Source: a virus (taxonomy: Duplodnaviria; Caudoviricetes). Taken from it: 59,377 bases of DNA. Under the pieces are notes generated by a model. That model saw only the letters and a program-made list of their open reading frames with translations. It made no database searches and was not told the DNA's origin. Positions 1 through 59,377 of this stretch are shown piece after piece. Made by a program: the position numbers and the translations under genes. The stretch's first letter is position 1. Every line of letters starts with the position of its first letter. The DNA lies in the IMG/VR virus record IMGVR_UViG_3300044949_001207, positions 1 to 59,377 of that record, one strand, 5' to 3'.

Positions 1-123
1 CACCTGATGCGGTGCATTGAGGCGGGCGGGGACTATGTCCGTGATGTGTCGCTGCCTGTGGGCGACCCGATCTACACCGGCCACCGATCCTGAGGCTTCG
101 CGGATTTCCGGCAACACACAGTG
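1..123. repeat. Terminal duplication A, identical to 58947..59069
   Basis: Base-by-base identity of 1..123 with 58947..59069; indicates circular assembly. Confidence 0.95.
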
Positions 124-198
124 AGGAGACAACCCATGGCAACGCCATTGCCAACACACATCACGACATGCCCAGACTTCAAGACCGACCACCTCCGC
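100..198. repeat. Terminal duplication B, identical to 59279..59377 (99 bp)
   Basis: Base-by-base identity; 99-bp length fits an assembler k-mer overlap. Confidence 0.95.
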
Positions 199-486
199 CC
201 ACATGAGCGGGTCATCGCTGAGGCTGTACTGCGAGCGCTGCCTGCGGAAGCAACCGGCGGCGGGTGCCAGGCCTTCTGGTCGCCCGACAAGTGGAAGCAA
301 CGGGGCGAGCACTACGGCACGAACAGCCTGCTCATCCTGGTGCATGACGGCGGCGACCTGGCCCCCCTTTGCAACCCCGACTACGGCATGCCGCTGTGTA
401 TGCGGGCGCTGGAGGCGGAACTGCGGGACATGGGTCTGTTCGTGGAGTCATGCACCTGCTGGTACTCCGCCGTCTACCTGGCCTGA
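136..486 (+). CDS. Hypothetical phage protein (GGGCxAF...HDGG motif)
   Basis: GAGGAG SD after repeat; stop codon abuts next repeat at 487. Confidence 0.75.
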   Translation: MATPLPTHITTCPDFKTDHLRPHERVIAEAVLRALPAEATGGGCQAFWSPDKWKQRGEHYGTNSLLILVHDGGDLAPLCNPDYGMPLCMRALEAELRDMGLFVESCTCWYSAVYLA

Positions 487-624
487 GCGGATTTCCGGCA
501 ACCAACCATTGACCTGACCGGACACTACAGGGTGGGGCCACCCGGCCCGCCGACCAGGTGCGAAACGGGTGGCATTCAATACACACAGGCGGATTTCCGG
601 CAACCACTAACGGGAGGACGAGTG

Positions 625-822
625 ATGGACTGCTGCATCTGTTCAAAGCCTATCGCCCCGGTCGGGGATTGGACGCAGGGCAATGACGCATGGCCGGTGG
701 CCGATGGCCGGTGCTGCAACCAGTGCGACATGACGGTGGTGGTGCAGGCCCGACTTATGGAGTGGGCGGCGGAGCGGAGCAAGCGGATTTCCGGCAACTC
801 AAAGCGGGAGGCAACCACATGA
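625..822 (+). CDS. Small Cys-rich putative Zn-binding protein
   Basis: CCIC...GNDAWPVADGRCCNQC; GGAGG SD; reads through repeat as RISGN. Confidence 0.7.
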   Translation: MDCCICSKPIAPVGDWTQGNDAWPVADGRCCNQCDMTVVVQARLMEWAAERSKRISGNSKREATT

Positions 823-1100
823 GCGACATCCTCGCAGACATTGAACGGGTGCTGGATCGATACCACAGATCGACGCCACTGCTGGTTCACGGCACCCTGC
901 TGGATGCAAGGCAGGAGATCAAGGCACTGATGACTGCGGTCGAGAACCTGACGGTCGAGCGGAACCTCCTGTCGCGGGCGCTTGAAGACCTGGCCGGGAG
1001 GTGCGACGGGCCGGATGGCGTGCTGAAAAACGGGGAGAACATACCCACATACCAGGCGCATGCGGCGCTGGGTCACTTCGATGACGGGGAGGATCGCTGA
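819..1100 (+). CDS. Hypothetical coiled-coil protein
   Basis: GGGAGG SD after repeat at 783; MSDILADIERVL. Confidence 0.7.
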   Translation: MSDILADIERVLDRYHRSTPLLVHGTLLDARQEIKALMTAVENLTVERNLLSRALEDLAGRCDGPDGVLKNGENIPTYQAHAALGHFDDGEDR

Positions 1101-1246
1101 TGAGCGTCGGCAGGATCGAAGTCCCATTCGTGGACGGTGTCGAGAGGCTGGCTGAGCTGCTGCTGTCGCTGGCACAGGCGGGGTTCACCTTCGAGGTGCG
1201 GTGCCACGACCAGATGGATGTGTGGGTGGTGTCGCTGAAGTACTGA
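1100..1246 (+). CDS. 48-aa hypothetical protein (below ORF-track cutoff)
   Basis: TGATG coupling; MSVGRIEVPFVDG...VVSLKY; stop abuts repeat at 1247. Confidence 0.65.
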   Translation: MSVGRIEVPFVDGVERLAELLLSLAQAGFTFEVRCHDQMDVWVVSLKY

Positions 1247-1281
1247 GCGGATTTCCGGCAACTCACAACGGGAGAAGACAT

Positions 1282-1478
1282 GCGTGACTTTTGAGAACCG
1301 CCCTGCGGGGTGACTGCGAAGTGGTGAGAGTTCACCGTCACACCGCACCACATGGTGTATGCCTGATCGCATTGAACCGCATCGGCGCAGGCGGATAAGG
1401 CGATCCGAATAGCGAATAGGTGGCATCGCGCAGCCATGTGGAAAAACGCAGCCGCGGGGGGGTTCTCAAGGGTCACGC
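1282..1478 (+). ncRNA. Candidate structured RNA occupying one repeat-bounded unit
   Basis: 1282..1308 pairs with 1452..1478 (27 positions, 1 mismatch, 3 G-U on + strand); nested helices inside; no convincing + strand ORF. Confidence 0.5.
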
Positions 1479-1538
1479 CAGGGTTTGGGCAAGGGGTCGA
1501 ACGGATTTCCGGCAACTGGATGCAGGAGGACAACGGCA

Positions 1539-1907
1539 ATGGTGCGGGTGCGGTTTCATCTTGGTGCCGGTGAGCATTGCAACCACTGGCAAGTGCGGCA
1601 TGCGGATGGACGGGTCGAGTACTTCGATCCCGCCACCTCCGGACTCCGCATGATCGGGTGCCGACTGCGGAACCACCGGGGTACGGCACAGCGAATCCAT
1701 GACGGGGAGCACAAGTCCCCCTGTGCCTGGATCGAGGCGCAGTGGGTCTACCGATACACACCGACCGCCGATGACATGCCATGCGGGGATTGGGTGGGCT
1801 ACAACCCGCGCGTTTCCCCCAACTGGCGGAGCGGAAACGGCGACAACCTGGACGGGCGGGAGTTCAGCGTCATCACAGCGGAAGGTCGAGCACTGTGGGC
1901 GCAGTGA
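1539..1907 (+). CDS. Hypothetical phage protein
   Basis: AGGAGG SD after repeat 1501; MVRVRFHLGAG...CAWIEA. Confidence 0.75.
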   Translation: MVRVRFHLGAGEHCNHWQVRHADGRVEYFDPATSGLRMIGCRLRNHRGTAQRIHDGEHKSPCAWIEAQWVYRYTPTADDMPCGDWVGYNPRVSPNWRSGNGDNLDGREFSVITAEGRALWAQ

Positions 1908-1947
1908 GCTGCGGATTTCCGGCAACACACATCGGGAGGGCGAGCAA

Positions 1948-2280
1948 GTGAGAGCAATCTATTCGGTTCACATCAAGGGCAAGCCGTCCGTCAAGCGGGG
2001 CGGCCTTGAATACACCAAGCAAAACGTCGTGGCTTTCGAGGATCGGGTGCGGGTCGTGGCCTATGCCGATGACTTCTTCGGGGGCGACGAGTCCAAGTCC
2101 TTCCGATCCAGGGTCATGCTGAACCCCACCTGGGGGCAACTGTTCCGCTGCTTTCAGCGGCAGATGCAAGTCACCAAGGACTACCACCATCAGTTCCTGG
2201 AAGGGGCGAGGGTGGTGCGTCGAGAGGTGGACGAGGACGGTGTGTCGTATGCGGTGGTCGCGCTGATCACTGGTTCGTGA
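1948..2280 (+). CDS. Hypothetical protein (DxHHxFLEG motif)
   Basis: GGGAGG SD and GTG start after repeat 1911; stop 3 nt before repeat 2284. Confidence 0.7.
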   Translation: MRAIYSVHIKGKPSVKRGGLEYTKQNVVAFEDRVRVVAYADDFFGGDESKSFRSRVMLNPTWGQLFRCFQRQMQVTKDYHHQFLEGARVVRREVDEDGVSYAVVALITGS

Positions 2281-2338
2281 GCTGCGGATTTCCGGCAACT
2301 GGTTGGTGGATCGGGCAATCACAACAGGAGACTGAGCA

Positions 2339-3220
2339 ATGAACGTCGTGGCAGATGGAATCTCCGCACATGTGCGGGACAGGTACAACTTCACCGTCGA
2401 TAAGTTCCCCCTGTCGGGGCCGGATGGCTTGCGGACTCCCTACTACGGGCTGTTCCGCAGCGACAACGGGCAGGCTGTCGGTGGCAGTTCGGTGTCGGCA
2501 AGGTACTGCCCACACACCACCGGGGATGTGCTGGCCCTGGTCGATGCGGCTGCGGCTGCGTTCGACGGGGTGGCATCCGTCCAGTGTGGGTTTCGCGACG
2601 GCCACTGGCTGTCGATTCAACCCACCAAGGAGCACCGGCTGGCTGTGTTCGGCACCGCGGACAACGTCTTCCCGCGACTGATCCTTGACGCACCATACGG
2701 TGGCAAGGGGTGTTTCGAGGGTGGCATCGGGTACTTCCGGGACACATGCCGGAACCTGGCCCGCATGCACATGGTCACCGGAACGACCGTCAAGATCCGC
2801 CACACCAGCGGGCTGCGGCTGAAGATGGACGAGCTGATCGCCACCTTCGGGCAGCTGCGTGAGGGGTGGAGCAACCTGGTCGAGGCTATCCAGGGGATGG
2901 AGCGCCGACAGGTGAGCATGGTGGAGTTCCTGCGGTCGGTGTACGGGGAACCAGACCGGGACAGCGGTCGCTCCGTCACCATCCACCGCAACCGGACGGA
3001 GGCGATCTTCCGGCGGCTGACTACTGAGCGGCTGCGGACGGGGCGACCCGACATGCAGACCGATTGGGTGGTCAGTGCATGGGAGGCGTTCAATGCGGTG
3101 CAGGGGTACGTCCAGCATGACGCCACCCGACGCGGCAACCCGACGCCAATCGACCGGATCATGATCGCTGCCACCGATCCTGCGGTGGCGAGGGCGGAGG
3201 CTCTGGCACTGTCCGTCTGA
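2339..3220 (+). CDS. DUF932 / TIGR03299-like phage-plasmid protein
   Basis: 293 aa; LFRSDNG..VS.RY, CRN, IRHT and SAWEAFNAVQGYVQH motifs recalled for this family. Confidence 0.65.
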   Translation: MNVVADGISAHVRDRYNFTVDKFPLSGPDGLRTPYYGLFRSDNGQAVGGSSVSARYCPHTTGDVLALVDAAAAAFDGVASVQCGFRDGHWLSIQPTKEHRLAVFGTADNVFPRLILDAPYGGKGCFEGGIGYFRDTCRNLARMHMVTGTTVKIRHTSGLRLKMDELIATFGQLREGWSNLVEAIQGMERRQVSMVEFLRSVYGEPDRDSGRSVTIHRNRTEAIFRRLTTERLRTGRPDMQTDWVVSAWEAFNAVQGYVQHDATRRGNPTPIDRIMIAATDPAVARAEALALSV

Positions 3221-3226
3221 CGGGTG

Positions 3227-3256
3227 CGGGCGGCGGGGACTGACACCCGCCGCCCG
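3227..3256 (+). other. 11-bp perfect GC hairpin between stop codon and repeat
   Basis: CGGGCGGCGGG-N8-CCCGCCGCCCG; no U-tract, so a terminator role is uncertain. Confidence 0.6.
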
Positions 3257-3298
3257 ACCTGGGCGGATTTCCGGCAACCAACATCGGAGGGAGAGGCG

Positions 3299-3529
3299 AT
3301 GAGACTGCAAGACGTTATCCGCAAACACGACCTGCGTGTGTGGCAGGACATCGAAGTGGTTGGGTCTGACCGCTGGATCACCGTCGTTGCCGATCAGTCC
3401 ACGCCGCAAATCTTTGGCGACCTTCACAAGGCCACCGACTACAGCATGTGCAGTGCCCTGCCGCGGGAGCATGGCATGTTGTTCATGTTCCAGCGAAACG
3501 CAAAGCCTGTGCGGCAGGAGGGACAGTGA
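3299..3529 (+). CDS. Hypothetical protein
   Basis: GGAGG SD after repeat 3263; TGATG coupling downstream. Confidence 0.65.
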   Translation: MRLQDVIRKHDLRVWQDIEVVGSDRWITVVADQSTPQIFGDLHKATDYSMCSALPREHGMLFMFQRNAKPVRQEGQ

Positions 3530-3780
3530 TGCATTGCCACCTAGTGATGGAGAAGTTGAACCATCTGGATGACGGCGAGTCGGTGAGCGAAGCCCTGCTC
3601 GACATGGGCGGGAAGGTGGCCGACTGCGACCCTCGCCAGGATGTGGCCCGACTACTGGGGTCGCTTTACATCAAGGCGGCAGACCGCGACGAGCTGCTGA
3701 AGCTGCTGAAGTACGCATACATCCAGATCCGGAAGGCCGAGGTCGCATGCATGCATGCCTACCTGAAGGAGGACGAGTGA
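3529..3780 (+). CDS. Hypothetical protein
   Basis: Coupled at both ends; ends in EDE. Confidence 0.65.
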   Translation: MHCHLVMEKLNHLDDGESVSEALLDMGGKVADCDPRQDVARLLGSLYIKAADRDELLKLLKYAYIQIRKAEVACMHAYLKEDE

Positions 3781-3986
3781 TGCCTCTGTCTGTGCGGGTT
3801 GATGTCTGTTCGCAAGATGCGGAGAGCTATCTGGCACACATGCTTGCCGCCTTGGATGAGGTGGGTTACTCGACCAAGGTGTTCCTGGACATGGATGGCA
3901 GGGGCAACAAGTGGTGGATAGCGGATGCAGCCAAGGACGAGCAGCGGATTTCCGGCAACGCCAGCGGGAGGACGAGTGATGCCTGA
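3780..3986 (+). CDS. Hypothetical protein
   Basis: Junction motif start; reads through repeat 3944. Confidence 0.55.
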   Translation: MPLSVRVDVCSQDAESYLAHMLAALDEVGYSTKVFLDMDGRGNKWWIADAAKDEQRISGNASGRTSDA

Positions 3987-4185
3987 GTTCGACGGGACGG
4001 TGCGGCAGTTCCTTGAGATCACCCGGCAGCTGTACCCCAACTGCCGCATCTGCGAGGACGCGGAGGGGCAGATCGTCATCTACACCGGGGCGACGGTGGA
4101 GATGGGAGGAGAGGTGGTTCGCTGGGAACCTGAAGACGAGGACGATTACCAGGCGTGGCTCGACCGCAACCCTGAGATCGGCTAG
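3979..4185 (+). CDS. Hypothetical acidic protein (EDxEGQIVIYTG)
   Basis: Junction motif start; TAG overlaps first base of repeat 4185. Confidence 0.7.
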   Translation: MPEFDGTVRQFLEITRQLYPNCRICEDAEGQIVIYTGATVEMGGEVVRWEPEDEDDYQAWLDRNPEIG

Positions 4186-4221
4186 CGGATTTCCGGCAAC
4201 AAGAAACGGGAGGACACGACG

Positions 4222-4506
4222 ATGCACATGATCAAGCCGATGCCGCACTGGAACGGAAGCAAGGCCGACGATCTCGCAGCTCAGATGCAGGCTGTCGGCA
4301 ATGCCATCGAAGAGGCGGCGGCACTGATGCGGCAGTGGCAACCGCATGGCCGGGACTACCAGGGGACGGGCGACTACCTGGCTGACCGCGACGAATACAT
4401 GCGTCGGCAGCGGGTGCTGACGGAGATGGCGGATCAGTACAACGCCGAGGCACTGAGGTGCATCGACCTTCACTACGGACGCAAACCAAAGGGGGTGACG
4501 GCATGA
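4222..4506 (+). CDS. Hypothetical phage protein (PHGRDY motif)
   Basis: GGGAGG SD after repeat; helical 94-aa ORF. Confidence 0.7.
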   Translation: MHMIKPMPHWNGSKADDLAAQMQAVGNAIEEAAALMRQWQPHGRDYQGTGDYLADRDEYMRRQRVLTEMADQYNAEALRCIDLHYGRKPKGVTA

Positions 4507-4745
4507 CTGACGAGGACAAGCGGGAGCTGTACCGGATCGTTCGCGACCGGCTGAACGGCAGCGGACTGAGCAGCAAGCGTAAGCATGTGGAGTCGGCAAT
4601 CTTTGCCGCCCACAACGGCAGGCTCGACGGCCAGACGCTGGTCACGACGCGCAACCTTCACCTGTTCCGGCAGTACCGGAACTCAGTGTCGTGCAGCCCC
4701 GCCCACATGGTGGACGCTGCGTTGGCGGACGGAGAGGACGAGTGA
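4503..4745 (+). CDS. Hypothetical protein
   Basis: ATGA overlap; ends in EDE. Confidence 0.6.
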   Translation: MTDEDKRELYRIVRDRLNGSGLSSKRKHVESAIFAAHNGRLDGQTLVTTRNLHLFRQYRNSVSCSPAHMVDAALADGEDE

Positions 4746-4984
4746 TGTCATCCCCATACGAACAGGAGTACGCGGACGGGCTGTACCCCAGCTTCACCCT
4801 GGTGTTCACCCTGCATAAGGAGACCGGCAACTACAGCATCTACTGCCCTGAGTGGAAGTGCGAGCTGGCCGGTGGCAAGCACCCAGGTCATGCGGCATAC
4901 GGGCTGATCATGGAGATCGTCGGTCACAACACAGAAGAGATGCGTCATGCGAATCGCCACGAAACAAATAGCACATGCTCTTAG
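4745..4984 (+). CDS. Hypothetical protein
   Basis: Junction motif start. Confidence 0.6.
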   Translation: MSSPYEQEYADGLYPSFTLVFTLHKETGNYSIYCPEWKCELAGGKHPGHAAYGLIMEIVGHNTEEMRHANRHETNSTCS

Positions 4985-5189
4985 TCTTGAGAGCGACGAA
5001 TCATCAGATTGTATTGCTACAGCACTGCGAAGTATTGAGACAATCCTTGATGCTGTTGCTGAGAATCTTGAGAACGATTTTGAATCGGCGGCATTGGGGG
5101 ATGCATCTAATCTCATCCAACTAATGAGGAATGGGCTGAGAGGTCGAGCGGATTTCCGGCAACACACAGCGGGAGGACGAGACCAATGA
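4947..5189 (+). CDS. Hypothetical protein, AT-richer than flanks
   Basis: 80-aa ORF; reads through repeat 5148 as ADFRQ. Confidence 0.45.
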   Translation: MRIATKQIAHALSLESDESSDCIATALRSIETILDAVAENLENDFESAALGDASNLIQLMRNGLRGRADFRQHTAGGRDQ

Positions 5190-5497
5190 ACAGGCAGCGG
5201 GCGGCTGAGCGCCGCCGGTATGAGCAGGCGATGGGGCTGAAGGCCGAGCACTGGGTTCCACTCAAGGCCAGTGGCATAGCACCTTTTCGCCTCTATCGGG
5301 TGGAGGGAACCTACCAGGTGGAGTTCAACCGCAGCGGTCGGACGCTACCGATCTATGAGTACAAGATGATTTGGGCGAAGGCATTCGAGGTCAGGCATCC
5401 ATGCGGCATAACGCATCGGTTCGCCACCCTCAGGGAAGCCAAGGCATTCGCGATGCAGCAGCTGGCGGGTTCGGGCAAGCGGATTTCCGGCAACTAG
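5186..5497 (+). CDS. Hypothetical protein
   Basis: GGAGG SD; ends RISGN-stop in repeat 5479. Confidence 0.65.
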   Translation: MNRQRAAERRRYEQAMGLKAEHWVPLKASGIAPFRLYRVEGTYQVEFNRSGRTLPIYEYKMIWAKAFEVRHPCGITHRFATLREAKAFAMQQLAGSGKRISGN

Positions 5498-5531
5498 AAA
5501 CGGATCGATAACCACTACGGGAGGATGAGCG

Positions 5532-5945
5532 ATGGTTCACTGGGGGTCTGAGGACTGCAACCCGCCGCTGCCAACTGACGATGTCGATGCGGCGTGGCGG
5601 GCGCATCTGATTGAGTGTGCCGGTGTGGTCGGGCTGTCATCCGTCAAGCACAGCAACGTCGAGGAGTGGCTGTGGCGGATGACGTTCCTGCAGCAGACGC
5701 TGAGCAAGGACTGCGGATGTCTGATCTGGGGTGACGGGCCTGGCAAGACCAAGCGGATGTACCTCACCATCGATGTGCTGCGGAGGTGGGTCGGACTGTG
5801 GACAAACTGGTCAACCCTTAACCGCAAAGAGTTCGTCAAGCTGCGTGTGGATCGGCTGACACAGGAATGCGACGGCACCCTGAAGGAGGCGCTGCGTCGT
5901 GAGGCGGAGACTGCGAAGCCCAAGAAGCGGAGGGTCAAGGTATGA
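5532..5945 (+). CDS. Hypothetical protein
   Basis: GGAGG SD; 137 aa. Confidence 0.7.
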   Translation: MVHWGSEDCNPPLPTDDVDAAWRAHLIECAGVVGLSSVKHSNVEEWLWRMTFLQQTLSKDCGCLIWGDGPGKTKRMYLTIDVLRRWVGLWTNWSTLNRKEFVKLRVDRLTQECDGTLKEALRREAETAKPKKRRVKV

Positions 5946-6283
5946 GGAACTGGAAGCTGGGCGAAGTGGCATGGGGGTGGCCCGACGATGTCGATAAGAA
6001 AGGGACGGAGACAGCAAGCGGCTATCGCTACATACCGATCTGGCAGACAGACGGTGCATTGAGATACCAGGTCGCCCGCGTTTATGTAGACGAGGACGAT
6101 GCCGAGCAGGAACAGGACTTGGCGTTGCTCGTCGCTGCACCGGAGATGCTGGCTGCGTTGCGACTTGCACATGACGCACTGGACTTTGCCCAGGCTCAGG
6201 TCGAGTCAGAGTCTGACGCTCATCAACTGCGTAAGTGGCGTGTGGCTGTGGGGCGGGCGATCTCAAAGGCGGAGGGACTGTGA
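5942..6283 (+). CDS. Hypothetical phage protein (LLxAAPEML motif)
   Basis: AAPEMLAAL...RAISKAEG, a common phage small-protein pattern. Confidence 0.75.
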   Translation: MRNWKLGEVAWGWPDDVDKKGTETASGYRYIPIWQTDGALRYQVARVYVDEDDAEQEQDLALLVAAPEMLAALRLAHDALDFAQAQVESESDAHQLRKWRVAVGRAISKAEGL

Positions 6284-6459
6284 TGAAGTGGGCAAAGTGC
6301 CTGCAGTGTGGAGGAGAGGTGTGGTTCGACGCCTGGGTGTGCCTGAACGGCGACGTTGCGGGCGGGCCTTACTCCAACACATGGTGCTCCACATGCGGGG
6401 GCGAGGCTGACTACTGCGTTGTGACCGAAGATGAGGAGGAAACCAATGTCAATGATTGA
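6283..6459 (+). CDS. Small Zn-ribbon protein
   Basis: CLQCGG...CSTCGG; TGATG coupling. Confidence 0.65.
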   Translation: MKWAKCLQCGGEVWFDAWVCLNGDVAGGPYSNTWCSTCGGEADYCVVTEDEEETNVND

Positions 6460-6694
6460 CACATGGACTGAGGACGAGGTCGAGCAGGCGTTGCGTCTGC
6501 TGCGGATCGGCAATGCGATTGTGTGGGAGCTGATGCGTACCGCGAAGCTGGACAGGGGCATCCGCCCCTCGACGGTGGACAGGTGGATCTTGGACAGCTC
6601 CAGCTTTCTGATGCAGCACAACCCGGAGGGTGGTGCGGATTTCCGGCAACTGACGGTGGAGGGAAAGGTGCATGCGGCGACCGAAGCTAACTGA
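6446..6694 (+). CDS. Hypothetical protein
   Basis: GGAGG SD; reads through repeat 6635. Confidence 0.55.
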   Translation: MSMIDTWTEDEVEQALRLLRIGNAIVWELMRTAKLDRGIRPSTVDRWILDSSSFLMQHNPEGGADFRQLTVEGKVHAATEAN

Positions 6695-6875
6695 CAAGGT
6701 GAAGCAGGGGCTGTGGCTGATCATCGCCCGCTCCCCCACCCTGTACTCCGCTGAGAACGGAGCACCTGGGATGGAGCGGGCGGAGCGGGAAGCGATCCTG
6801 GCGGCGGGCCGGTACGCCGAAGCGTACTGGGGAACCAAGATGAAGATGCGGCTGACCGCCGAGGAGGACGAGTGA
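6672..6875 (+). CDS. Hypothetical protein
   Basis: GGAGG SD after repeat; ends in EDE. Confidence 0.6.
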   Translation: MRRPKLTDKVKQGLWLIIARSPTLYSAENGAPGMERAEREAILAAGRYAEAYWGTKMKMRLTAEEDE

Positions 6876-7060
6876 TGCGTGTGGCTGAGTTGCGGGATGA
6901 TCTGCAGGAGTATGTCTGCCGCTGCATCAGCGACTGCCACCGTCACATGGAGACAGGCGACTACGGCAGGCAGTGGGGATCGATCAAGCATCTGCACAAC
7001 GTACTTACTGCCTGGGCCTTGCTCGACAGTGAGGTCACCAGGCTGGCGGAGGAAGAGTGA
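6875..7060 (+). CDS. Hypothetical protein
   Basis: Junction motif at both ends. Confidence 0.6.
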   Translation: MRVAELRDDLQEYVCRCISDCHRHMETGDYGRQWGSIKHLHNVLTAWALLDSEVTRLAEEE

Positions 7061-7299
7061 TGACGTTCGACAAGTGGCGGGAGACTCGCAGCCGAGTGAA
7101 CGACAACGCCATCATCGAAGATGCGTTCGGGTACATCCCAGAAGGATCGTATTCCGCCTTGGTCTATGACCCCGGCGTGATTGCCATCCTCCCAGACGGT
7201 CGTTATTGCACGCACATCTGGCGGTCGGAATACATCGGCGGGCTGGACGAGGTTGAGCGTCGGCTATGGGAAGACTACGCCAAGGCGGAGTGCGAGTGA
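7060..7299 (+). CDS. Hypothetical protein
   Basis: Junction motif at both ends. Confidence 0.65.
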   Translation: MTFDKWRETRSRVNDNAIIEDAFGYIPEGSYSALVYDPGVIAILPDGRYCTHIWRSEYIGGLDEVERRLWEDYAKAECE

Positions 7300-7502
7300 T
7301 GGCTGGACATGAGCGGGTGAGGATTGAGCTGTCGCGTCGGGACATCGACGTTGTGCTCGAAGCACTGGAACAGATGGCGAGTCTTGTCGTGAGTCAGTGG
7401 GGTGAGGAAGATACTGACGGCGGATATCTGGAGCTGCGTCGGGCGCATCGGTCGATCCGGCAGCAAGCGGATTTCCGGCAACCAGAAGGGGAGGATGAGT
7501 GA
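7299..7502 (+). CDS. Hypothetical protein
   Basis: Coupled; reads through repeat 7467; ends in EDE. Confidence 0.55.
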   Translation: MAGHERVRIELSRRDIDVVLEALEQMASLVVSQWGEEDTDGGYLELRRAHRSIRQQADFRQPEGEDE

Positions 7503-7759
7503 TGGCGAAGAAGAAACGAAAGGCACCGAAGCCCCTGCCGTACTGGCCTGGGCTGACCAAGCTGCATGACAACCGCGTTGGGTGCGGCGCTGTGCTGCTG
7601 ACTGACGATCTCGCCAAGGCTGTGATCACCGCTATCGACATCGCGACTGTGGTCATCCAGGAGGGCGACGTTGCTGCCGGGACAACTGACAAGTGGACAC
7701 TGGGTCGGCTTGAGATGGCCCGCCGGATTCTGGATTGGACGTTCATGGAGGACGAGTGA
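7502..7759 (+). CDS. Hypothetical protein
   Basis: Junction motif at both ends; ends in EDE. Confidence 0.65.
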   Translation: MAKKKRKAPKPLPYWPGLTKLHDNRVGCGAVLLTDDLAKAVITAIDIATVVIQEGDVAAGTTDKWTLGRLEMARRILDWTFMEDE

Positions 7760-7989
7760 TGGCCGATGCGTGGAAAGTCTACGGCGGCATGACAGAGTGG
7801 GAACGCGCGCCGTTGTATGCCGATGCCCGGCAGCGGGTGCTGAAATCACGCAGGCTGTCAAAGTACATGGACATCATCTTGTCCGATGGCTACGCCACCG
7901 ATGACGATCACCTGCGTTGGGTGATTCGCGGACGGGTTGGTGAGATTGAATCCTGGGCCAAACAAATAAAGGAGGACAGCAATGGCTAA
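7759..7989 (+). CDS. Hypothetical protein
   Basis: Junction motif start. Confidence 0.65.
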   Translation: MADAWKVYGGMTEWERAPLYADARQRVLKSRRLSKYMDIILSDGYATDDDHLRWVIRGRVGEIESWAKQIKEDSNG

Positions 7990-8413
7990 GAAGAAGACTG
8001 TGAAGAAGCAGGCGATTAAGGGAGACCACATTCCTGTGCTTGGCGCACAGGACGAATACATCATGGAGTACGCCCCGTCGCTGATGCCGGTGTACTTGAC
8101 GCTGTTACCGTTCTCCTACCTGTTCGGCTCAACGTCTGCTGGGCCACAGAAGCAGGCGAAGAACTACGACCCAGCGGAGCCGCCGCACATTGAGCTGCAC
8201 ATCGATGACCCGCGCTACCCAGGCGGGGATACCGATGGCGTGTCTTTGTACTGCCGCATCACGGCAGAGAAGATCACTCTCCACTGGTACTGCATAAATG
8301 GTGCGGGCGGAGAGAACTACCATGAGGAATCGGAGATCACACTGGCTGGGCTGTGGGATTACCTGCGCCAGATTCCGAAGCCGTATGAGTGCTTCTGCAA
8401 GGGGGATGAGTGA
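7982..8413 (+). CDS. Hypothetical protein
   Basis: AGGAGG SD; 143 aa. Confidence 0.65.
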   Translation: MAKKKTVKKQAIKGDHIPVLGAQDEYIMEYAPSLMPVYLTLLPFSYLFGSTSAGPQKQAKNYDPAEPPHIELHIDDPRYPGGDTDGVSLYCRITAEKITLHWYCINGAGGENYHEESEITLAGLWDYLRQIPKPYECFCKGDE

Positions 8414-19465: not shown

Positions 19466-19703
19466 TGGTGACTCCCTCCATGAAGAAATTGGTGAGGTTG
19501 GTAGCGAACATGCCACGCAGAACGTCCAGCTCTGCGAGGACGCGGGTGATGTCACCCTTCATGCACTGCAGAGCTTGGTACACCCGCCCGTACTCCTCCT
19601 CGTCGTAGTAGACGGGCGAGGCACTGGACGCGATTGCGCGGGCAGACTCAGCAGCTGTGATCAGTCGAGCCTTGATCTCAAGCAGTTCCTGTGGGGCGAT
19701 CAT
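19215..19703 (-). CDS. Hypothetical protein
   Basis: AGGAGG SD; ATGA coupling with ERF-like gene. Confidence 0.55.
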   Translation of the reverse strand: MIAPQELLEIKARLITAAESARAIASSASPVYYDEEEYGRVYQALQCMKGDITRVLAELDVLRGMFATNLTNFFMEGVTNGLGVSDGRGAVGQVQDAQGGPSGEEVGTLQPSGAGGGVQEERPARKRRSRSQPRRNRKGDGGAEAGVGSGDGAGQVDSGAQA

Positions 19704-20365
19704 GCCGTCACCTCCTGAGCGTTCAGCTCATCCATCCGGTTCGCGGCTGCGTCCTCCATGGCACCGATGCAGTTGGGGTTCATGTCTCCGCCTTCGATCT
19801 TCTTTGCGATCTTTGCCAGGATGCTCTCGACCGCAGCCGGGGTCTTGGCAGCGGCGATGGCATCTCTCGCCAGCCGCTCCTGTGCCGCCCAGGTGGCGTT
19901 CGACGGAGCCTCCTCAGACTTCTCGACGGCATCGGCACCGTCCGCATCGTCCTCAGCAGACAGGCACAGCAATGCCTCCAGTGCCGTGCGCCGCATGTAG
20001 GACATGTGGGCCTTCAGCCGCTGGCTGTCATCGAACTGCTTGATGGGCAGCGTCGAGCTGAGGAACTCGTCGCCAAAGCTCAGCGTCGTGACCAGCGTCA
20101 CGCCCTCATCACTGACGCAGTACTCCTGCGACGGCACGACGCCGTGCTTGAGCAAGAATTGCTTGGTGCTGCGGTTGATGCTGTCGAGGGTCGAGTAGCG
20201 GTAGGTCACAGGCTTGCCGTGACGCACCACAGTCCCCTCAGCATCACGCACCACAGGCGTGAACTCACTCATCGCCTTCGCCAGCTGAGACATCAGCCGA
20301 GCGACGGACTGACTGCGCTCCCGGTAGACGGTCAGCTTCCTTGGCCTTGAGAACGAACTCTCCAT
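19700..20365 (-). CDS. ERF-family ssDNA-annealing protein
   Basis: YRYSTLD...Q...SYMRRTAL...EDDADG. Confidence 0.8.
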   Translation of the reverse strand: MESSFSRPRKLTVYRERSQSVARLMSQLAKAMSEFTPVVRDAEGTVVRHGKPVTYRYSTLDSINRSTKQFLLKHGVVPSQEYCVSDEGVTLVTTLSFGDEFLSSTLPIKQFDDSQRLKAHMSYMRRTALEALLCLSAEDDADGADAVEKSEEAPSNATWAAQERLARDAIAAAKTPAAVESILAKIAKKIEGGDMNPNCIGAMEDAAANRMDELNAQEVTA

Positions 20366-20366
20366 G

Positions 20367-21287
20367 TCAGTTTCCCTCCCTCATGTAGTGCGGAACCTCC
20401 AGCTCATGCTCCTCGCCATACCCAGACGGGAGCCACGAATCCCACTCACGGCGCTGCTTCAGTTCGGCAAGCAACGCCAAGCATTTCCGCCGTCCGCGCT
20501 CTTGCAGATCGGCAGGCAGATAGACCACCGCACAGAGGTGCGGCCAGACGTTCGAGGTGAAGATGAACCGCATGGCATGCGGCTCCCATCCACACTGGAT
20601 GGCGGCTTCCCCGTACATCGCGGACTGAAGGTCGTAGTGCCACTTCCGCATCGCCAGCATGGCGGTCTTCTGCGGGTCGGCCTCCGACGTTGTCTTCAGA
20701 TCGTAGAACTTGCTGGCCGTCGCACCGTCGATGCGGCTGCGGCAGTCATGGCCGTTCCACCGAAAGCGGACGTTGAACTCCCGATCCACAGACTCATCAA
20801 GCAGTCGGGCAGCGGCCTTGTTCGCCAGGATCTGACGAGTCTGATTCCAGAGCTGAGCGCGGTCAGCTGGGCTGACGATGATCGCTCCCTCAGGTTGCTC
20901 AGCGATCCATGCCTTGGCGGCTTTGCCAACCTGTCCTGTTGGAGTCAGGAGGTCATCGCTGGGGCAAGCAACCCTGCTCCAAAAAGTTTCCTCACCGACC
21001 TCCGCCCAGAGGTGCAGGAGAGTCCCGTATTCAAGAGATTGTCCTCTCTTGGCAGGGGCTGACCCGGCTATGTGCCGGGCGTAGAATTCGAGCGGAGAGG
21101 CGGCGAGCGCCTTGAGCTGCGAACAGGAGACCTCAGACCAGCGGTGGTAATCCTCCGCTGGCGAATGGCAGACTGTGACCGAATCGTTTGTGACTAGCGG
21201 CGGCCGGACTTGAACCGGCGACACCCGGCTTATGAAGCCGGGTCGCTTGTCACCCTCAATTCGGTCGGGGTTTGTCCCGACCGTCAT
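20367..21287 (-). CDS. RecE/exonuclease VIII-like PD-(D/E)xK exonuclease (DUF3799-like)
   Basis: YH..VSCSQLK, GTLLH, CRSRID, YDLKTT, YDLQSAMY; GGGAGG SD before ATG at 21287. Confidence 0.85.
   Translation of the reverse strand: MTVGTNPDRIEGDKRPGFISRVSPVQVRPPLVTNDSVTVCHSPAEDYHRWSEVSCSQLKALAASPLEFYARHIAGSAPAKRGQSLEYGTLLHLWAEVGEETFWSRVACPSDDLLTPTGQVGKAAKAWIAEQPEGAIIVSPADRAQLWNQTRQILANKAAARLLDESVDREFNVRFRWNGHDCRSRIDGATASKFYDLKTTSEADPQKTAMLAMRKWHYDLQSAMYGEAAIQCGWEPHAMRFIFTSNVWPHLCAVVYLPADLQERGRRKCLALLAELKQRREWDSWLPSGYGEEHELEVPHYMREGN
21195..21242 (-). other. 3' half of a tRNA(CAT), candidate attP core
   Basis: - strand: CCGGC-TTCATAA-GCCGG anticodon arm, GTGTC, GCCGG-TTCAAGT-CCGGC T arm, CGCCGCT-A; no complementary 5' acceptor strand or D arm. 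Confidence 0.6.
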
Positions 21288-55970: not shown

Positions 55971-56123
55971 TCATTTCCCGCAGTCGCATCCCTTGCAGTT
56001 GGGATCGCCGCAGTCGCAGGCAGCTTGCCCCTTCTCCTTCATCCGCTTGGCCTTCATCTCAACGTAGGCCTCATTGAACTTGTCCTTGAGGCTCTTCGGC
56101 TTGGCCTTGCTCTTCTTCGCCAT
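55971..56123 (-). CDS. 50-aa basic, Cys-rich protein
   Basis: Hand translation MAKKSKAKPK...CDCGDPNCKGCDCGK; GGAG SD. Confidence 0.6.
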   Translation of the reverse strand: MAKKSKAKPKSLKDKFNEAYVEMKAKRMKEKGQAACDCGDPNCKGCDCGK

Positions 56124-56265
56124 GGGTATCTCCGCCCTGGTGGTGATGGGTGGTCAGCCTGTTTATGGACACGAAAAGGGCCGGTAGGCGGCTCCGCCAC
56201 CCCCGGCCCAATCGCTGCAGCGAATTGCTAGTGTCTTGCCGCTGGCAACTCCGGTGCCAGCCGGA

Positions 56266-56526
56266 TTAGTGCGACAGGTCGCTCATGAAGCGAACTGCGA
56301 TGTATGTCCCCAGGAATGCACCGCATGCCAGCGGAACCAAATACCAGGGGTTGTCCAGGTAGGTCATCACCCCATACGCGCCCAGGCTGTACAGGGCCGA
56401 GCTGATCGCACTGGCCTGCACAGCCTGCTTCCTGGCTACGCACAGCACATAGAGGGCGTAGAGAACGTCGAAGACCACATAGACGCAAAAGACGGTCGCC
56501 GCCTGCAACAGGCTGAAATCGCTCAT
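56266..56526 (-). CDS. Small 3-TM membrane protein
   Basis: Three hydrophobic spans; GAFLGTY. Confidence 0.75.
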   Translation of the reverse strand: MSDFSLLQAATVFCVYVVFDVLYALYVLCVARKQAVQASAISSALYSLGAYGVMTYLDNPWYLVPLACGAFLGTYIAVRFMSDLSH

Positions 56527-56768
56527 CGGAACTTCCTCCGGTGGGGCTTCAGAAACGGAACACCGTCCAGCTCAGGGTCTGGGCCATGGTAGTGCCAGAC
56601 CACAACCGACCGCCGCGTCTTCTCGTCCACTATCTCGACCCGCTTGTAGTAGTGCTCGTCGTAGGGCGACTTCCTCGCCCGAATGCAAAACCAGCAGCTG
56701 TCGCTGTCCTCGACCCTCGCACCGTCCACAGGCCCGCCCAGGCACTCAAGCTTCTTGAGCCGCGTCAC
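56523..56768 (-). CDS. Hypothetical protein (GGPVDG motif)
   Basis: AGGAG SD; GTG start. Confidence 0.6.
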   Translation of the reverse strand: MTRLKKLECLGGPVDGARVEDSDSCWFCIRARKSPYDEHYYKRVEIVDEKTRRSVVVWHYHGPDPELDGVPFLKPHRRKFR

Positions 56769-57090
56769 TGGCAGTCTCCTGGATGCTCTGGCTGGCAATG
56801 GCATCCGCCCAGCCCATGCGATACGCCCGCTCCGTACCGGCAATAGCCCTCCAGGCCGGGGAGGCCCACAGCTCCTCCTCCTCGCCCTCAGCGGCTTCGT
56901 CAGGGCCGAGCATCGCACAGTGCAGGAAGAAGGCCCGCATCGCCAGATAGTGCGTCGGGTACTGGAATTCATTGCCGTACTCGCCGTCGATGAACGACCT
57001 GGCCCGCTCGACCTCCTCTTTCGTCCAGCCCATCTGCTGGCAGGCGGAGACCCACTCGCCAACAAGCCGCTCGAACCATGCATTGCTCAT
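56746..57090 (-). CDS. Hypothetical protein
   Basis: GGGAGG SD; first gene of - strand late block. Confidence 0.65.
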   Translation of the reverse strand: MSNAWFERLVGEWVSACQQMGWTKEEVERARSFIDGEYGNEFQYPTHYLAMRAFFLHCAMLGPDEAAEGEEEELWASPAWRAIAGTERAYRMGWADAIASQSIQETASDAAQEA

Positions 57091-57185
57091 CAGATCCTCC
57101 CTTCGAGCAGCGTTATGCAGCTCACGAATCTGATTGTCAGAGCCGGTCAAGAGATGCATCGACCCCTTTGCGATTTCAGAAAAAA

Positions 57186-57220
57186 TCCAGGAGCGGCACA
57201 TATATATATGTGTTCCAGGA
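57186..57220. promoter_or_regulatory. AT-rich 16-bp palindrome flanked by TCCAGGA direct repeats
   Basis: CACATATATATATGTG at 57197..57212; TCCAGGA at 57186 and 57214; lies at strand divergence point. Confidence 0.5.
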
Positions 57221-57568
57221 ATTGGGGGGCCGGGGCTTCGGGCCTGCCGCCACCCGCCGCAACTCCAGCCGCCGCCGCCGGTTGCGACGGTGCCGGTGGA
57301 GCCGCATGCCCCCTCGACCCGCGCACGCCCGCGACGGTCGTGTGCCGCCCCTCCGGATTTCCGGCAACGACTCTTCTGCGCTTCTCTTCGCGCGCTGACG
57401 GCGGCTGACCCGTCTGCGGATTTCCGGCAACGCCCAGTGTCGGCGGTTCAACCCGCCGCGGATTTCCGGCAACGGTGATTCGGCAGCGGTCAACGGAGAC
57501 CGCAACGGATTTCCGGCAACGGTGATTCGACAGCGGCACACGCCGCACAACTCAACGGGAGACATGTC

Positions 57569-57658
57569 ATGTCCGTTCGTCAAGTCTGGCAGGCGCTGGT
57601 TGCTCTTGGATTCTCCAACTCTGAGGCCTTTGTGCTGGCGCTGAAGTACGCGGGCTAA
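57569..57658 (+). CDS. 29-aa micropeptide
   Basis: GGGAG SD; MSVRQVWQALVALGFSNSEAFVLALKYAG; fills one repeat-bounded unit. Confidence 0.5.
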   Translation: MSVRQVWQALVALGFSNSEAFVLALKYAG

Positions 57659-57780
57659 GCCCCTGCGGATTTCCGGCAACGACACACATCAAGGGGTCGG
57701 ATAGGCCACATGACGGTTCGAGTCCGTCGCCCCTACTTCCTGCGGTTTTCCGGCAACGGAGCGTACCTGGAGCAACCACA

Positions 57781-58695
57781 ATGCAAACCACAATTCGGCG
57801 GCGGCGGCGGAAGTCGCCGGGGGATACGACAGCGTACCCCTATGTGGTCGAACGATTCGACTACAGGGTGGTTGTCCACTCGAAACACAAGGCTACGGTC
57901 TACGACTTGCGGGGCGGGGATACACGAATCCTCCCGCACGAAGTGACGGTCGCCAAACTGCTGGGCGAGGGCGACCTCAACCCTAAGACGGCGAAGAACG
58001 AAGTCGCCACTATGGGGCTGTCGCTCTACCCTGCGGACGGTGCGGGGGTCGGGAATGTCTGCCCCCTGTCGAAGTGGTGCCGTGTGCCATGTCTGGCACA
58101 TCAGGGGCAAGGGCCGGTGCCGTCCGTCAAGGCGGCGAGGGTGGCGAAGACGGTGTTGTTCAACGTAGTGAGGGATTGGTTTCTCGCCAAACTGAACCGG
58201 GAGTTGACCCGATTCCGACAGCGGGTGCCTGTCGACATGGTGGCCGGGGTGCGCCTGAACATGTTCAGTGACCTACGGTGGGAAGAATACGGGGTCATCG
58301 ACGCCCACCCCGACATAGCATTCTACGACTACACCAAACTGCCAGACCGGGCGGGGCAACTGCGCCCCAACTATTGGGTGACGTTCAGTTACGACGGCCA
58401 CAATTGGGCGGACGCTGAGCGCATCCTGCAGGCCGGGGGCAACGTATCGGTCGTGTTTTACAACGACACCGACAGGCCCGTATGCGGCAAAGCCGCGCAC
58501 CGTCAAACCCTGCCGGATTCGTGGCGCAAGTATCGGGTCATCGACGGCGGGAAAAGCGATTGGCGACCGGGCGATCCGCGCGGGGTCATCGTCGGCCTGC
58601 GACTACTCGCACGCACCTACGCTTCGCGGCAGTCTGCAATCGACAGCGGGTTCGGGGTGCTGGCCGATGGATGCCAAATGGCGGCGGCTGCCTGA
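57781..58695 (+). CDS. Gp88-like protein
   Basis: VCP....C...CL, VRLN..SD, FYDYTK, NY.VTFS, GGNVSVVF, VIDG..SD.R..DP..VIVGL; stop abuts repeat. Confidence 0.7.
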   Translation: MQTTIRRRRRKSPGDTTAYPYVVERFDYRVVVHSKHKATVYDLRGGDTRILPHEVTVAKLLGEGDLNPKTAKNEVATMGLSLYPADGAGVGNVCPLSKWCRVPCLAHQGQGPVPSVKAARVAKTVLFNVVRDWFLAKLNRELTRFRQRVPVDMVAGVRLNMFSDLRWEEYGVIDAHPDIAFYDYTKLPDRAGQLRPNYWVTFSYDGHNWADAERILQAGGNVSVVFYNDTDRPVCGKAAHRQTLPDSWRKYRVIDGGKSDWRPGDPRGVIVGLRLLARTYASRQSAIDSGFGVLADGCQMAAAA

Positions 58696-58736
58696 GCGGA
58701 TTTCCGGCAACTACCTACAGAAGGGGACACACGACC

Positions 58737-59039
58737 ATGGACTACTATCCGGACGAACATGGGGCAACCTGTATCTGCCCAGACATGCCGCGTCGGCGGT
58801 TCGAGGCCAACGCTGAGGCTATCCGCCAACGGCACGGCTTCCTGACCAAGTCAGACCTGGCAGACATCGTCGGCTTTGACCGGCTGCGCAAGGTGCTGGT
58901 GCGGTGCGGCGGCTGTCGGTTCGTGGCAGCGGCGCAGGATGTCGCCCACCTGATGCGGTGCATTGAGGCGGGCGGGGACTATGTCCGTGATGTGTCGCTG
59001 CCTGTGGGCGACCCGATCTACACCGGCCACCGATCCTGA
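58737..59039 (+). CDS. Hypothetical protein
   Basis: AGGGGA SD after repeat 58696; its 3' end is also seen at 1..93. Confidence 0.7.
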   Translation: MDYYPDEHGATCICPDMPRRRFEANAEAIRQRHGFLTKSDLADIVGFDRLRKVLVRCGGCRFVAAAQDVAHLMRCIEAGGDYVRDVSLPVGDPIYTGHRS

Positions 59040-59078
59040 GGCTTCGCGGATTTCCGGCAACACACAGTGGAGGGACAA

Positions 59079-59303
59079 GTGGAAACCATCAACGCTGAAG
59101 ACCTGGGGAAACGCGCCGCCACCGGCAGTAATGAGCTGCTGGTCAGCATGCCTGACCTTCACCTGTTGTCCGAAATCGCGCGGCTGACCAAGTCGGTTGC
59201 AAGTTTCGGCGGCGCGGTGCTGCTGGCAGCGTACCAGGAGGAAGCACGGCGGCGCGGGTTCAAGGTGATTCGTGAACTGCGGATTTCCGGCAACACACAG
59301 TGA
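59079..59303 (+). CDS. Hypothetical protein on the variable cassette
   Basis: GGAGGG SD and GTG start; reads through closing repeat (RISGNTQ-stop). Confidence 0.6.
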   Translation: METINAEDLGKRAATGSNELLVSMPDLHLLSEIARLTKSVASFGGAVLLAAYQEEARRRGFKVIRELRISGNTQ

Positions 59304-59377
59304 GGAGACAACCCATGGCAACGCCATTGCCAACACACATCACGACATGCCCAGACTTCAAGACCGACCACCTCCGC

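What the first reader, a model, noticed from the sequence alone, without database searches (positions are those of the whole stretch)
59046..59302. Contig ends capture two alleles differing by exactly one 233-bp repeat-bounded cassette
Seen: at the window start the upstream gene joins the downstream gene through a single 24-bp sequence GCGGATTTCCGGCAACACACAGTG (100..123). At the window end the same two flanks are separated by that 24-mer (59046..59069), a 74-aa ORF with its own SD, and a second identical 24-mer (59279..59302). The start allele is the precise product of recombination between the two 24-mers. The junction has 99 nt of left flank and 75 nt of right flank matching the end allele, so it is unlikely to be a simple repeat collapse if k is well above 24. 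Inference: the population contains cassette-plus and cassette-minus genomes, i.e. excision or insertion is active.
Basis: partly seen in the sequence, partly recalled or inferred. Interest (0 to 1): 0.88.

Follow-up and report, generated by a model that had tools for sequence, protein, structure and literature searches.

The report
Phage gene present or absent between repeats
A lake-water phage population holds genomes with and without one small gene that sits between two identical 24-base copies of a repeated intergenic motif, a known kind of phage gene turnover caught here in nature.

Summary
Window 1..99 equals 58947..59045 and 100..198 equals 59279..59377. The 24-mer stands at 100, 59046 and 59279. 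The window is a whole IMG/VR phage record whose ends overlap across a 233-bp indel.

The indel is real. Logan k=31 contigs of three lake metagenome runs show a 269-nt cassette unitig and a 36-nt unitig. A simulation of the two alleles predicts exactly these. Cassette depth is 0.33, 0.50 and 0.69 of the flank depth.

The 24-mers are copies of a 16-nt motif. It has 20 exact copies, all on one strand, each just upstream of the ribosome-binding site of a small early gene. Two relatives carry different motifs in the same layout.

The phage encodes an Erf annealing protein and an exonuclease. Short-homology recombination is therefore the likeliest cause, as with PeSL shuffling in T4-like phages.

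"Active excision" is not shown. I saw no circle junction and no other repeat-to-repeat junction. The serine recombinase is a core gene also found in relatives without motif arrays.

This is a new variant of a known kind, of moderate interest.

The parts
1..99 (+). Copy of the 3' end of gene A and the spacer, identical to 58947..59045. This is the left flank of the cassette-minus junction.
   Evidence: string identity
100..123 (+). Single 24-mer R at the cassette-minus junction (A-R-D).
124..198 (+). Ribosome-binding site and start of gene D, identical to 59303..59377. This is the right flank of the junction.
136..486 (+). Gene D, 116 aa, no family. A 61% identical homologue lies in relative L017.
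58737..59039 (+). Gene A, 100 aa, no family. A 73% identical homologue lies in relative L018.
59046..59069 (+). R1, the left 24-mer. It consists of the 16-nt motif GCGGATTTCCGGCAAC plus ACACAGTG.
59079..59303 (+). Cassette ORF C, 74 aa, GTG start after GGAGGGA. It is an orphan, and its last 8 codons and stop lie in R2.
59279..59302 (+). R2, the right 24-mer, identical to R1.
57353..57520 (+). Four tandem motif copies (57353, 57416, 57458, 57505) with no ORF between them, at the head of the + strand early block. Further copies lie at 57665, 57742 and 58696.
487..9577 (+). The rest of the motif array: 15 copies (13 exact, 1501 with one mismatch, 9562 with two), most of them 7-26 nt upstream of the ribosome-binding site of a small ORF.
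19700..20365 (-). Erf-family single-strand annealing protein.
   Evidence: phrog_155, 4.9e-18; PF04404, 9e-11
20367..21287 (-). PD-(D/E)XK exonuclease (exonuclease VIII-like), the partner of Erf.
   Evidence: phrog_412, 6.3e-36; PF12684, PF12705
15417..15929 (-). RusA-like Holliday junction resolvase.
   Evidence: phrog_244, 5.8e-13
10104..10877 (+). Small serine recombinase (resolvase/invertase type), a core gene of the phage group.
10874..11395 (-). Sigma-70-family sigma factor, 173 aa.
   Evidence: weak PHROG hit; 219 relatives, many named sigma-70 family by JGI, one with PF04545

Best explanation
The window is an assembler's walk once around the circular assembly graph of a ~59-kb podovirus-like lake phage. 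The walk enters through one branch of a bubble and leaves through the other, so its two ends carry the two alleles of one locus. The alleles are real and coexist. The unit is 233 bp: a ribosome-binding site, a 74-aa orphan early ORF and one motif copy. It is present in roughly one third to two thirds of the genomes in three lake samples. The unit is bounded by two identical 24-nt copies of a phage-specific 16-nt motif that precedes most small early genes. The indel is most likely the product of homology-guided recombination between these two copies. The favoured route is deletion by single-strand annealing or replication slippage, plausibly helped by the phage's own Erf and exonuclease pair. 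The reverse route, gain by exchange with a related genome through the same motif, cannot be excluded. The motif thus acts as a portable recombination handle around accessory early genes, as PeSLs do in T4-like phages. Shown: both alleles, their exact junctions, their approximate frequencies, the motif array and the recombination genes. Inferred: the enzyme, the direction of the event and the primary function of the motif (a binding site for a phage-specific regulator, either promoter or stoperator-like operator).
For: Sequence identities are.

Read-derived evidence comes from Logan k=31 contigs, with 4 of 4 runs laid. In 3 of 4 runs (X1, X2, X3) the long upstream contig ends exactly at 59069. 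A 269-nt unitig covers 59040..59308 at depths 13.8, 60.8 and 6.2. A 36-nt unitig matches 59040..59069 with its first 30 letters, at depths 13.8, 95.8 and 2. The downstream contig starts exactly at 59279.

The simulation of the two circular alleles at k=31 predicts just these: 269 nt at 59040..59308, and 36 nt whose first 30 letters equal 59040..59069 and whose last 30 equal 59279..59308.

The cassette-to-flank depth ratios are 13.8/42.4, 60.8/122.8 and 6.2/8.93 (table 2).

R1/R2 ties for the longest exact direct repeat in the genome at 24 nt.

Erf, a PD-(D/E)XK exonuclease and RusA are present.

The slot after the GP88-family gene differs among relatives: L018 has GP88-A-other and L017 has GP88-other-D. 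The genes between motif copies are orphans: 0 Pfam families in 20 small early ORFs.

PeSL precedent: Arbiol et al. 2010, PMC2839356 (abstract and passages read).
Against: The last 6 letters of the 36-nt unitig were not shown, so its identity as the A-R-D junction rests on its length and on its first 30 letters.

The depths of the two branches do not add up well to the flank depth in X1 (27.6 versus 42.4) or X2 (156.6 versus 122.8).

X1-X3 may include the source sample. They test the assembly, but they are not all independent populations.

Two other repeat pairs of equal or near-equal length (57458/57505 with 24 nt, 1911/2284 with 23 nt) show no variant in X1. Homology alone therefore does not predict where indels are seen; selection or rarity must be invoked.

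There is no outgroup with A next to D or with C, so the direction of the event is unknown.

No experiment links Erf or the exonuclease to the event.
Confidence: 0.7

Rival explanations
1. Ongoing, reversible excision and integration of the cassette as a small circle.
For: Both alleles coexist at high frequency in three runs. PeSL mini-circles are documented in T4-like phages (PMC2839356, passages).
Against: The cassette unitig is unbroken from 59040 to 59308 in X1-X3, so no cassette-R-cassette junction stood in the contigs. No other repeat-to-repeat junction appears in X1. The frequencies differ between samples (0.33-0.69), as expected for lineages rather than for a fixed rate. Contigs drop rare variants, so this is not excluded.
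Confidence: 0.1
2. Site-specific recombination at the 16-nt motif by the phage's serine recombinase, giving an integron-like cassette array.
For: A resolvase-type recombinase lies at the end of the motif-bearing block. The motif has a central CCGG.
Against: Recombinase homologues lie next to the sigma gene in 16 of 17 sigma loci and in L021. Yet none of those 17 loci has any 11-mer at 5 or more copies, so the recombinase is not tied to motif arrays. The motif is asymmetric and forms no hairpin. Only the one pair with 24-nt identity shows a variant, not the other 16-nt sites.
Confidence: 0.04
3. Assembly artefact: the minus junction is a collapse or chimera across the 24-nt repeat.
For: The junction sits at a contig end, and the flanks are 99 and 99 nt, which looks like k-mer graph boundaries.
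Against: An independent k=31 graph built from reads (31 is larger than 24) holds the junction k-mers in three runs at depths 13.8, 95.8 and 2. These match the simulation.
Confidence: 0.03
4. One genome type with unlike terminal repeats: every virion DNA carries the cassette in one terminal copy only.
For: The duplicated region lies at the ends of the record. Podoviruses often have direct terminal repeats (general knowledge).
Against: The cassette would then be at about 1.0 times genome depth in every sample. It is at 0.33, 0.50 and 0.69 times.
Confidence: 0.03

Closest known systems
PeSL (promoter-early stem-loop) cassettes of T4-like phages (Arbiol et al. 2010, PMC2839356; Comeau et al. 2014, PMC4122927, search listing only)
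   Same: Both are short repeated intergenic motifs in one orientation that flank small orphan early genes. In both, recombination between neighbouring copies deletes or inserts single ORFs between very close relatives.
   Different: The motif here holds no sigma-70-like promoter (0 sites) and no stem-loop. The phage is an unrelated ~59-kb podovirus-like virus. The motif sequence differs between close relatives. The variant is seen as a standing polymorphism in environmental populations, not between two isolates. No mini-circle junction was seen.
Stoperators of Cluster A mycobacteriophages (Mavrich and Hatfull 2019, PMC6550527, passages read)
   Same: Both are asymmetric sites of about 13-16 bp, present in dozens of copies and oriented with transcription. 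Both include copies at the early promoter region, and both have a consensus that differs between related phages. A GP88-family early gene is shared (238 Mycobacterium phage records).
   Different: No repressor was identified here, and a temperate lifestyle is not shown. The sites are confined to one early block, and they sit at a short distance from the ribosome-binding site. Stoperators are not known (to my recollection) as indel boundaries.
Promoters of phage-encoded sigma factors (phiEco32, 7-11; PMC4331800, passages read)
   Same: Both are well conserved phage-specific intergenic motifs that may overlap the 3' end of the upstream gene. This phage encodes a sigma-70-family factor.
   Different: Copy number is far higher here (about 25 versus about 6). 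The sigma factor is 62-79% identical in the 17 viral-contig loci, none of which has a high-copy motif.
Integron gene cassettes (recalled; compared in the PeSL paper's discussion)
   Same: Both are arrays of promoterless small ORFs, each with one recombination handle, and both have single-ORF units of gain and loss.
   Different: There is no tyrosine integrase among the 56 ORFs scanned with Pfam. There is no attC-like hairpin. The handle is 16-24 nt.

Membership tests
PeSL cassette | Contains a strong sigma-70-like early promoter | tested here: not met
   0 promoter-like sites in 1..10000 and in 56000..59377. Shuffles give 2.3 and 0.7.
PeSL cassette | Contains a stem-loop that terminates transcription | tested here: not met
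   No terminator-like site lies at any motif copy. DNA folds of 54-nt stretches around R1, R2 and the minus junction reach -2.4 to -2.6 kcal/mol, weaker than the shuffle means.
PeSL cassette | Flanks non-essential orphan ORFs, and recombination between copies makes indels between close relatives | tested here: met
PeSL cassette | Excised mini-circles | tested here: inconclusive
   No cassette-R-cassette junction appears in the contigs of X1-X3. However, contigs drop rare variants, and a 233-bp circle is unlikely to enter a library.
Integron cassette array | IntI-type tyrosine recombinase next to the array | tested here: not met
   No tyrosine recombinase family appears among 56 distinct ORFs scanned with Pfam. 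Not every ORF was scanned.
Integron cassette array | attC: an imperfect palindrome that folds as a single-strand hairpin | tested here: not met
Stoperator/operator array | Many asymmetric sites in one orientation relative to transcription, with a lineage-specific consensus | tested here: met
   20 exact copies, all on the + strand. At up to 2 mismatches, 25 of 26 are on the + strand. L017 and L018 have their own motifs, 13 and 12 copies.
Stoperator/operator array | A cognate immunity repressor that binds the sites and blocks elongation | not testable with these tools
   No repressor-like family was found in the scanned ORFs. Binding needs an experiment.
Serine-recombinase crossover site (res/hix type) | The site co-occurs with its recombinase across relatives | tested here: not met
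   The recombinase is present in 16 of 17 sigma loci plus L021. None of the 17 has an 11-mer at 5 or more copies.
Promoter of a phage-encoded sigma factor or RNA polymerase | A cognate polymerase or sigma factor whose specificity tracks the motif | tested here: inconclusive
   A sigma-70-family gene is present. No single-subunit RNA polymerase was found. The sigma genes of L017 and L018 are not on the DNA held.

The most novel reading that the evidence does not exclude
The motif array is a dedicated cassette system. In this reading a phage-encoded protein, either the conserved serine recombinase or an unknown factor, cuts and joins at the 16-nt motif. Single early genes would then be excised, reinserted and exchanged between co-infecting phages at will, making a phage analogue of the integron. 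The plus/minus polymorphism would be its first visible product.
Probability: 0.04. Interest if true: 0.85.

Novelty: new variant of a known kind. Interest (0 to 1): 0.4.

Why it matters
The finding shows single-gene presence/absence microdiversity in an uncultivated freshwater phage. Its words were found in 20 runs of 18 studies, of which only four were laid. The exact breakpoints lie in a repeated regulatory-looking motif. This extends the idea of repeat-mediated modular shuffling of accessory early genes, so far documented for PeSLs of T4-like phages, to an unrelated phage group and a different kind of motif.

The varying allele share between samples invites a test of whether the orphan gene is under host-dependent selection, for example as an anti-defence or takeover function.

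There is also a practical point. An indel inside the terminal overlap makes a circularly closed genome look 'linear' to end-repeat detection. Such imperfect overlaps could be mined systematically as a cheap detector of structural polymorphism.

Tried and rejected
1. Cassette in another slot in run X4. Record 19 joins the upstream flank of the 5148 motif copy to a stretch listed as 0 'other letters' against 59046..59075. I first read this as the cassette start at another slot. I rejected it because the 'other letters' column is not reliable for these short paralogous pieces. The X1 piece that maps to the 3263 copy is listed with 0 although the window sequences differ at 4 of 30 positions. The same 6635 locus is listed with 3 in X1 and 0 in X2. 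All loose ends of table 7 match flanks of other motif copies. The 'skips 559' joint has side 21, below the tool's own limit of 30.

2. X4. The upstream contig also ends at 59069 and cassette pieces lie at lower depth, but no 36-nt record is among the listed rows (21 rows not shown). I make no claim from it.

3. Closer relatives that carry the cassette.
- Viral contigs with protein C gave 0, with D 0 and with A 0.
- The 24-mer gave 0 in metagenome contigs and 0 in viral contigs.
All 80 listed rows have a single match, which is chance level, so the result is useless.
- GP88 in genome contigs gave 0.
- The phage collection gave no DNA match. The portal gave only a 23.6% match to a Microcystis phage.

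4. A phage RNA polymerase as the reader of the motif. No family or PDB match was found for the 880-, 1133- and 1951-aa proteins. The Atlas gives only weak kinase-like leads for the 880-aa protein, at score 0.80, below its own bar.

5. tRNA or a known RNA family in the leader: none. The fold of 57660..57790 is not better than shuffles.

6. Function of the cassette protein. There is no PHROG. There is no homologue other than itself among 5.8 billion proteins at lengths 40-130 (longer and shorter forms were not searched). The best Atlas score is 0.78. There is no paralogue in the window.

7. The assembler's k. The 99/99-nt flanks suggest k=99 boundaries, but the start at base 1 does not fit a simple unitig model, so I left this open.

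8. Supplementary files of the papers were not consulted. The PeSL primer tables and the stoperator site lists might refine the comparisons.

Full report
**Observation.** The window is a whole IMG/VR virus record of 59,377 bp. It is classed 'linear', with a CheckV completeness of 100. A script check shows that bases 1..99 are identical to 58947..59045 and that 100..198 are identical to 59279..59377. The 24-mer GCGGATTTCCGGCAACACACAGTG occurs exactly three times, at 100, 59046 and 59279. None of 100 shuffles gave a match, even at up to 3 mismatches. The identity of the two end copies stops at exactly 24 nt.

Between the two copies lie a GGAGGGA ribosome-binding site, a GTG start at 59079 and a 74-codon frame. 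The last eight codons and the stop of that frame run into the second 24-mer. Positional GC (0.65/0.44/0.72) is like that of the neighbouring genes. The upstream gene A is 58737..59039 (100 aa), and the downstream gene D is 136..486. The record is therefore a circular walk whose overlap holds a 233-bp indel. The two implied genome lengths are 59,179 and 58,946.

**Is the minus allele real?** Twenty public lake or freshwater metagenome runs from 18 studies hold words of this region. Three of them hold 99-100% of the words and may include the source. I laid the Logan k=31 contigs of four runs on 56500..59377.

In X1, X2 and X3:
- The long upstream contig ends exactly at 59069, the last base of the first 24-mer.
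- The downstream contig begins exactly at 59279, the first base of the second 24-mer.
- A 269-nt unitig covers 59040..59308.
- A separate 36-nt unitig matches 59040..59069 with its first 30 letters and then departs.

I simulated a k=31 graph of the two circular alleles. It predicts a 269-nt cassette unitig at 59040..59308. It also predicts a 36-nt minus-junction unitig whose first 30 letters equal 59040..59069 and whose last 30 equal 59279..59308. Because 31 is larger than 24, these junction words must stand in reads.

The last six letters of the observed 36-mer were not printed, so that identification rests on its length and its first 30 letters. Cassette depth over flank depth is 13.8/42.4, 60.8/122.8 and 6.2/8.93, that is 0.33, 0.50 and 0.69. 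The 36-mer depths (13.8, 95.8, 2) agree only roughly.

This excludes a repeat collapse. It also excludes a genome with one cassette per molecule in an unlike terminal repeat, which would give a ratio near 1 in every sample. X4 has cassette pieces and the same contig end at 59069, but no listed junction unitig.

**What was not seen.**
- The cassette unitig is unbroken, so no cassette-repeat-cassette junction (circle or tandem copy) stood in these contigs.
- In X1 two contigs of 37,858 and 21,125 nt cover the genome without a break at any other motif copy.
- Two other repeat pairs show no variant there: 57458/57505 (24 nt, 47 bp apart) and 1911/2284 (23 nt, 373 bp apart).
- All loose ends and the one 'joint' are paralogous alignments of other motif copies.

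My first reading of X4 record 19 as a cassette in another slot was withdrawn (see Tried and rejected). Contigs drop rare variants, so rare events remain possible.

**The repeats.** The 24-mers are copies of a 16-nt motif, GCGGATTTCCGGCAAC. It has 20 exact copies, all on the + strand. At up to 2 mismatches there are 26 matches, 25 of them on the + strand, against 0.06 expected. All + strand copies lie in the block 57353..59377 plus 1..9577.

Four copies stand in tandem without ORFs at the head of the block. Most of the others lie 7-26 nt upstream of the ribosome-binding site of a small ORF, and several overlap the end of the preceding ORF.

The motif contains no sigma-70-like promoter and no hairpin. 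Twenty small ORFs of the block have no Pfam family.

**Relatives.** Five viral contigs encode a GP88-family protein 53-78% identical to the one at 57781..58695. Two of the five have the same architecture with a different motif:
- L017 has YGAACTAACGGCAAGGG, 13 copies, with four in tandem at the head.
- L018 has YTGACCCCGCGACATAG, 12 copies, with three in tandem at the head.

The other three have no high-copy motif. Gene content between the motifs differs: L018 has GP88-A-other and L017 has GP88-other-D, and neither has the cassette ORF.

**Phage genes that bear on mechanism.**
- An Erf annealing protein (19700..20365), a PD-(D/E)XK exonuclease (20367..21287), a RusA-like resolvase and a helicase are present.
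- A small serine recombinase lies at 10104..10877.
- A sigma-70-family factor lies at 10874..11395.
- The recombinase lies next to the sigma gene in 16 of 17 further relatives and in L021. None of those 17 loci has any 11-mer at five or more copies. The recombinase is therefore a core gene that is not tied to the motif arrays.
- Capsid, portal and an SU10-type adaptor point to a podovirus-like virion.

**Mechanism.** The best reading is recombination guided by the 24-nt identity. The favoured route is deletion by single-strand annealing or slippage, for which the phage brings its own Erf/exonuclease pair. That such systems act on homologies of a few tens of bases is established knowledge that I recall; I did not check it here. 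Gain through exchange with a relative at the same motif would leave the same junctions, and no outgroup decides the direction.

The primary function of the motif is unresolved. It is asymmetric, strand-specific and lineage-specific, and it is tandemly repeated at the head of the block. This fits binding sites for a fast-evolving phage-specific regulator. Stoperator-like operators are one option (PMC6550527, passages). Promoters of a phage-specific transcription factor are another (PMC4331800, passages). My rough odds are 40% operator-like, 30% promoter, 15% RNA-level signal and 15% other.

**Comparison and verdict.** Functionally this is closest to PeSL-mediated modular shuffling in T4-like phages (PMC2839356, abstract and passages). 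It is not a PeSL, because both defining parts, the sigma-70 promoter and the stem-loop, were tested and not met. It is not an integron either.

Its claim of active excision is not shown. I rate it a new variant of a known kind, with interest 0.4.

Noticed in passing
L017:9536-13955 and L018:9662-14999: Relatives with 78% and 68% identical GP88 proteins carry their own, different high-copy motifs (13 and 12 copies). The layout is the same: 3-4 tandem copies at the head, then one copy before each early gene. The W and L017 motifs share only CGGCAA at the 3' side. This looks like concerted turnover of a whole site array.
   Followed up: partly
window 10874-11395 (-) and 10104-10877 (+): A sigma-70-family sigma factor and a small serine recombinase lie tail to tail. 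Both are conserved across the phage group: 219 sigma relatives at E<=0.001, and the recombinase is in 16 of 17 sigma loci.
   Followed up: partly
window 1-10000 and 56000-59377: There is no sigma-70-like promoter match at all in the 13.4 kb of the early block and its leader (0 found; shuffles give 2.3 and 0.7). How this block is transcribed is open.
   Followed up: no
window 57715-57725: GGTTCGAGTCC, a tRNA T-arm-like string, lies between two motif copies just upstream of the GP88 gene. L018 has a similar string in the same place. ARAGORN and Rfam find nothing, and the fold is no better than shuffles.
   Followed up: partly
window 57198-57213: The AT-rich palindrome CACATATATATATGTG lies in the non-coding stretch between the divergent gene blocks. 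It could be an origin, a packaging site or an operator.
   Followed up: no
window 57781-58695: A GP88-family (PF17338) early protein has tblastn matches in 267 phage records. 238 of them are Mycobacterium phages, where it is gene 85-90 near the right end. Others include HMO-2011, pelagiphages and roseophages, where it is among the first genes.
   Followed up: partly
window 57458/57505 and 1904-1926/2277-2299: There are two further exact direct repeat pairs of 24 and 23 nt, 47 and 373 bp apart. They could give analogous deletions, but none was seen in the contigs of X1.
   Followed up: partly
window 52960-55602 (-): An 880-aa protein has no family. The Atlas gives only weak kinase-like leads (score 0.80, below its own bar).
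   Followed up: partly
whole window: The record is classed 'linear' although it closes on itself. The 233-bp indel inside the terminal overlap defeats end-repeat detection.
   Followed up: yes
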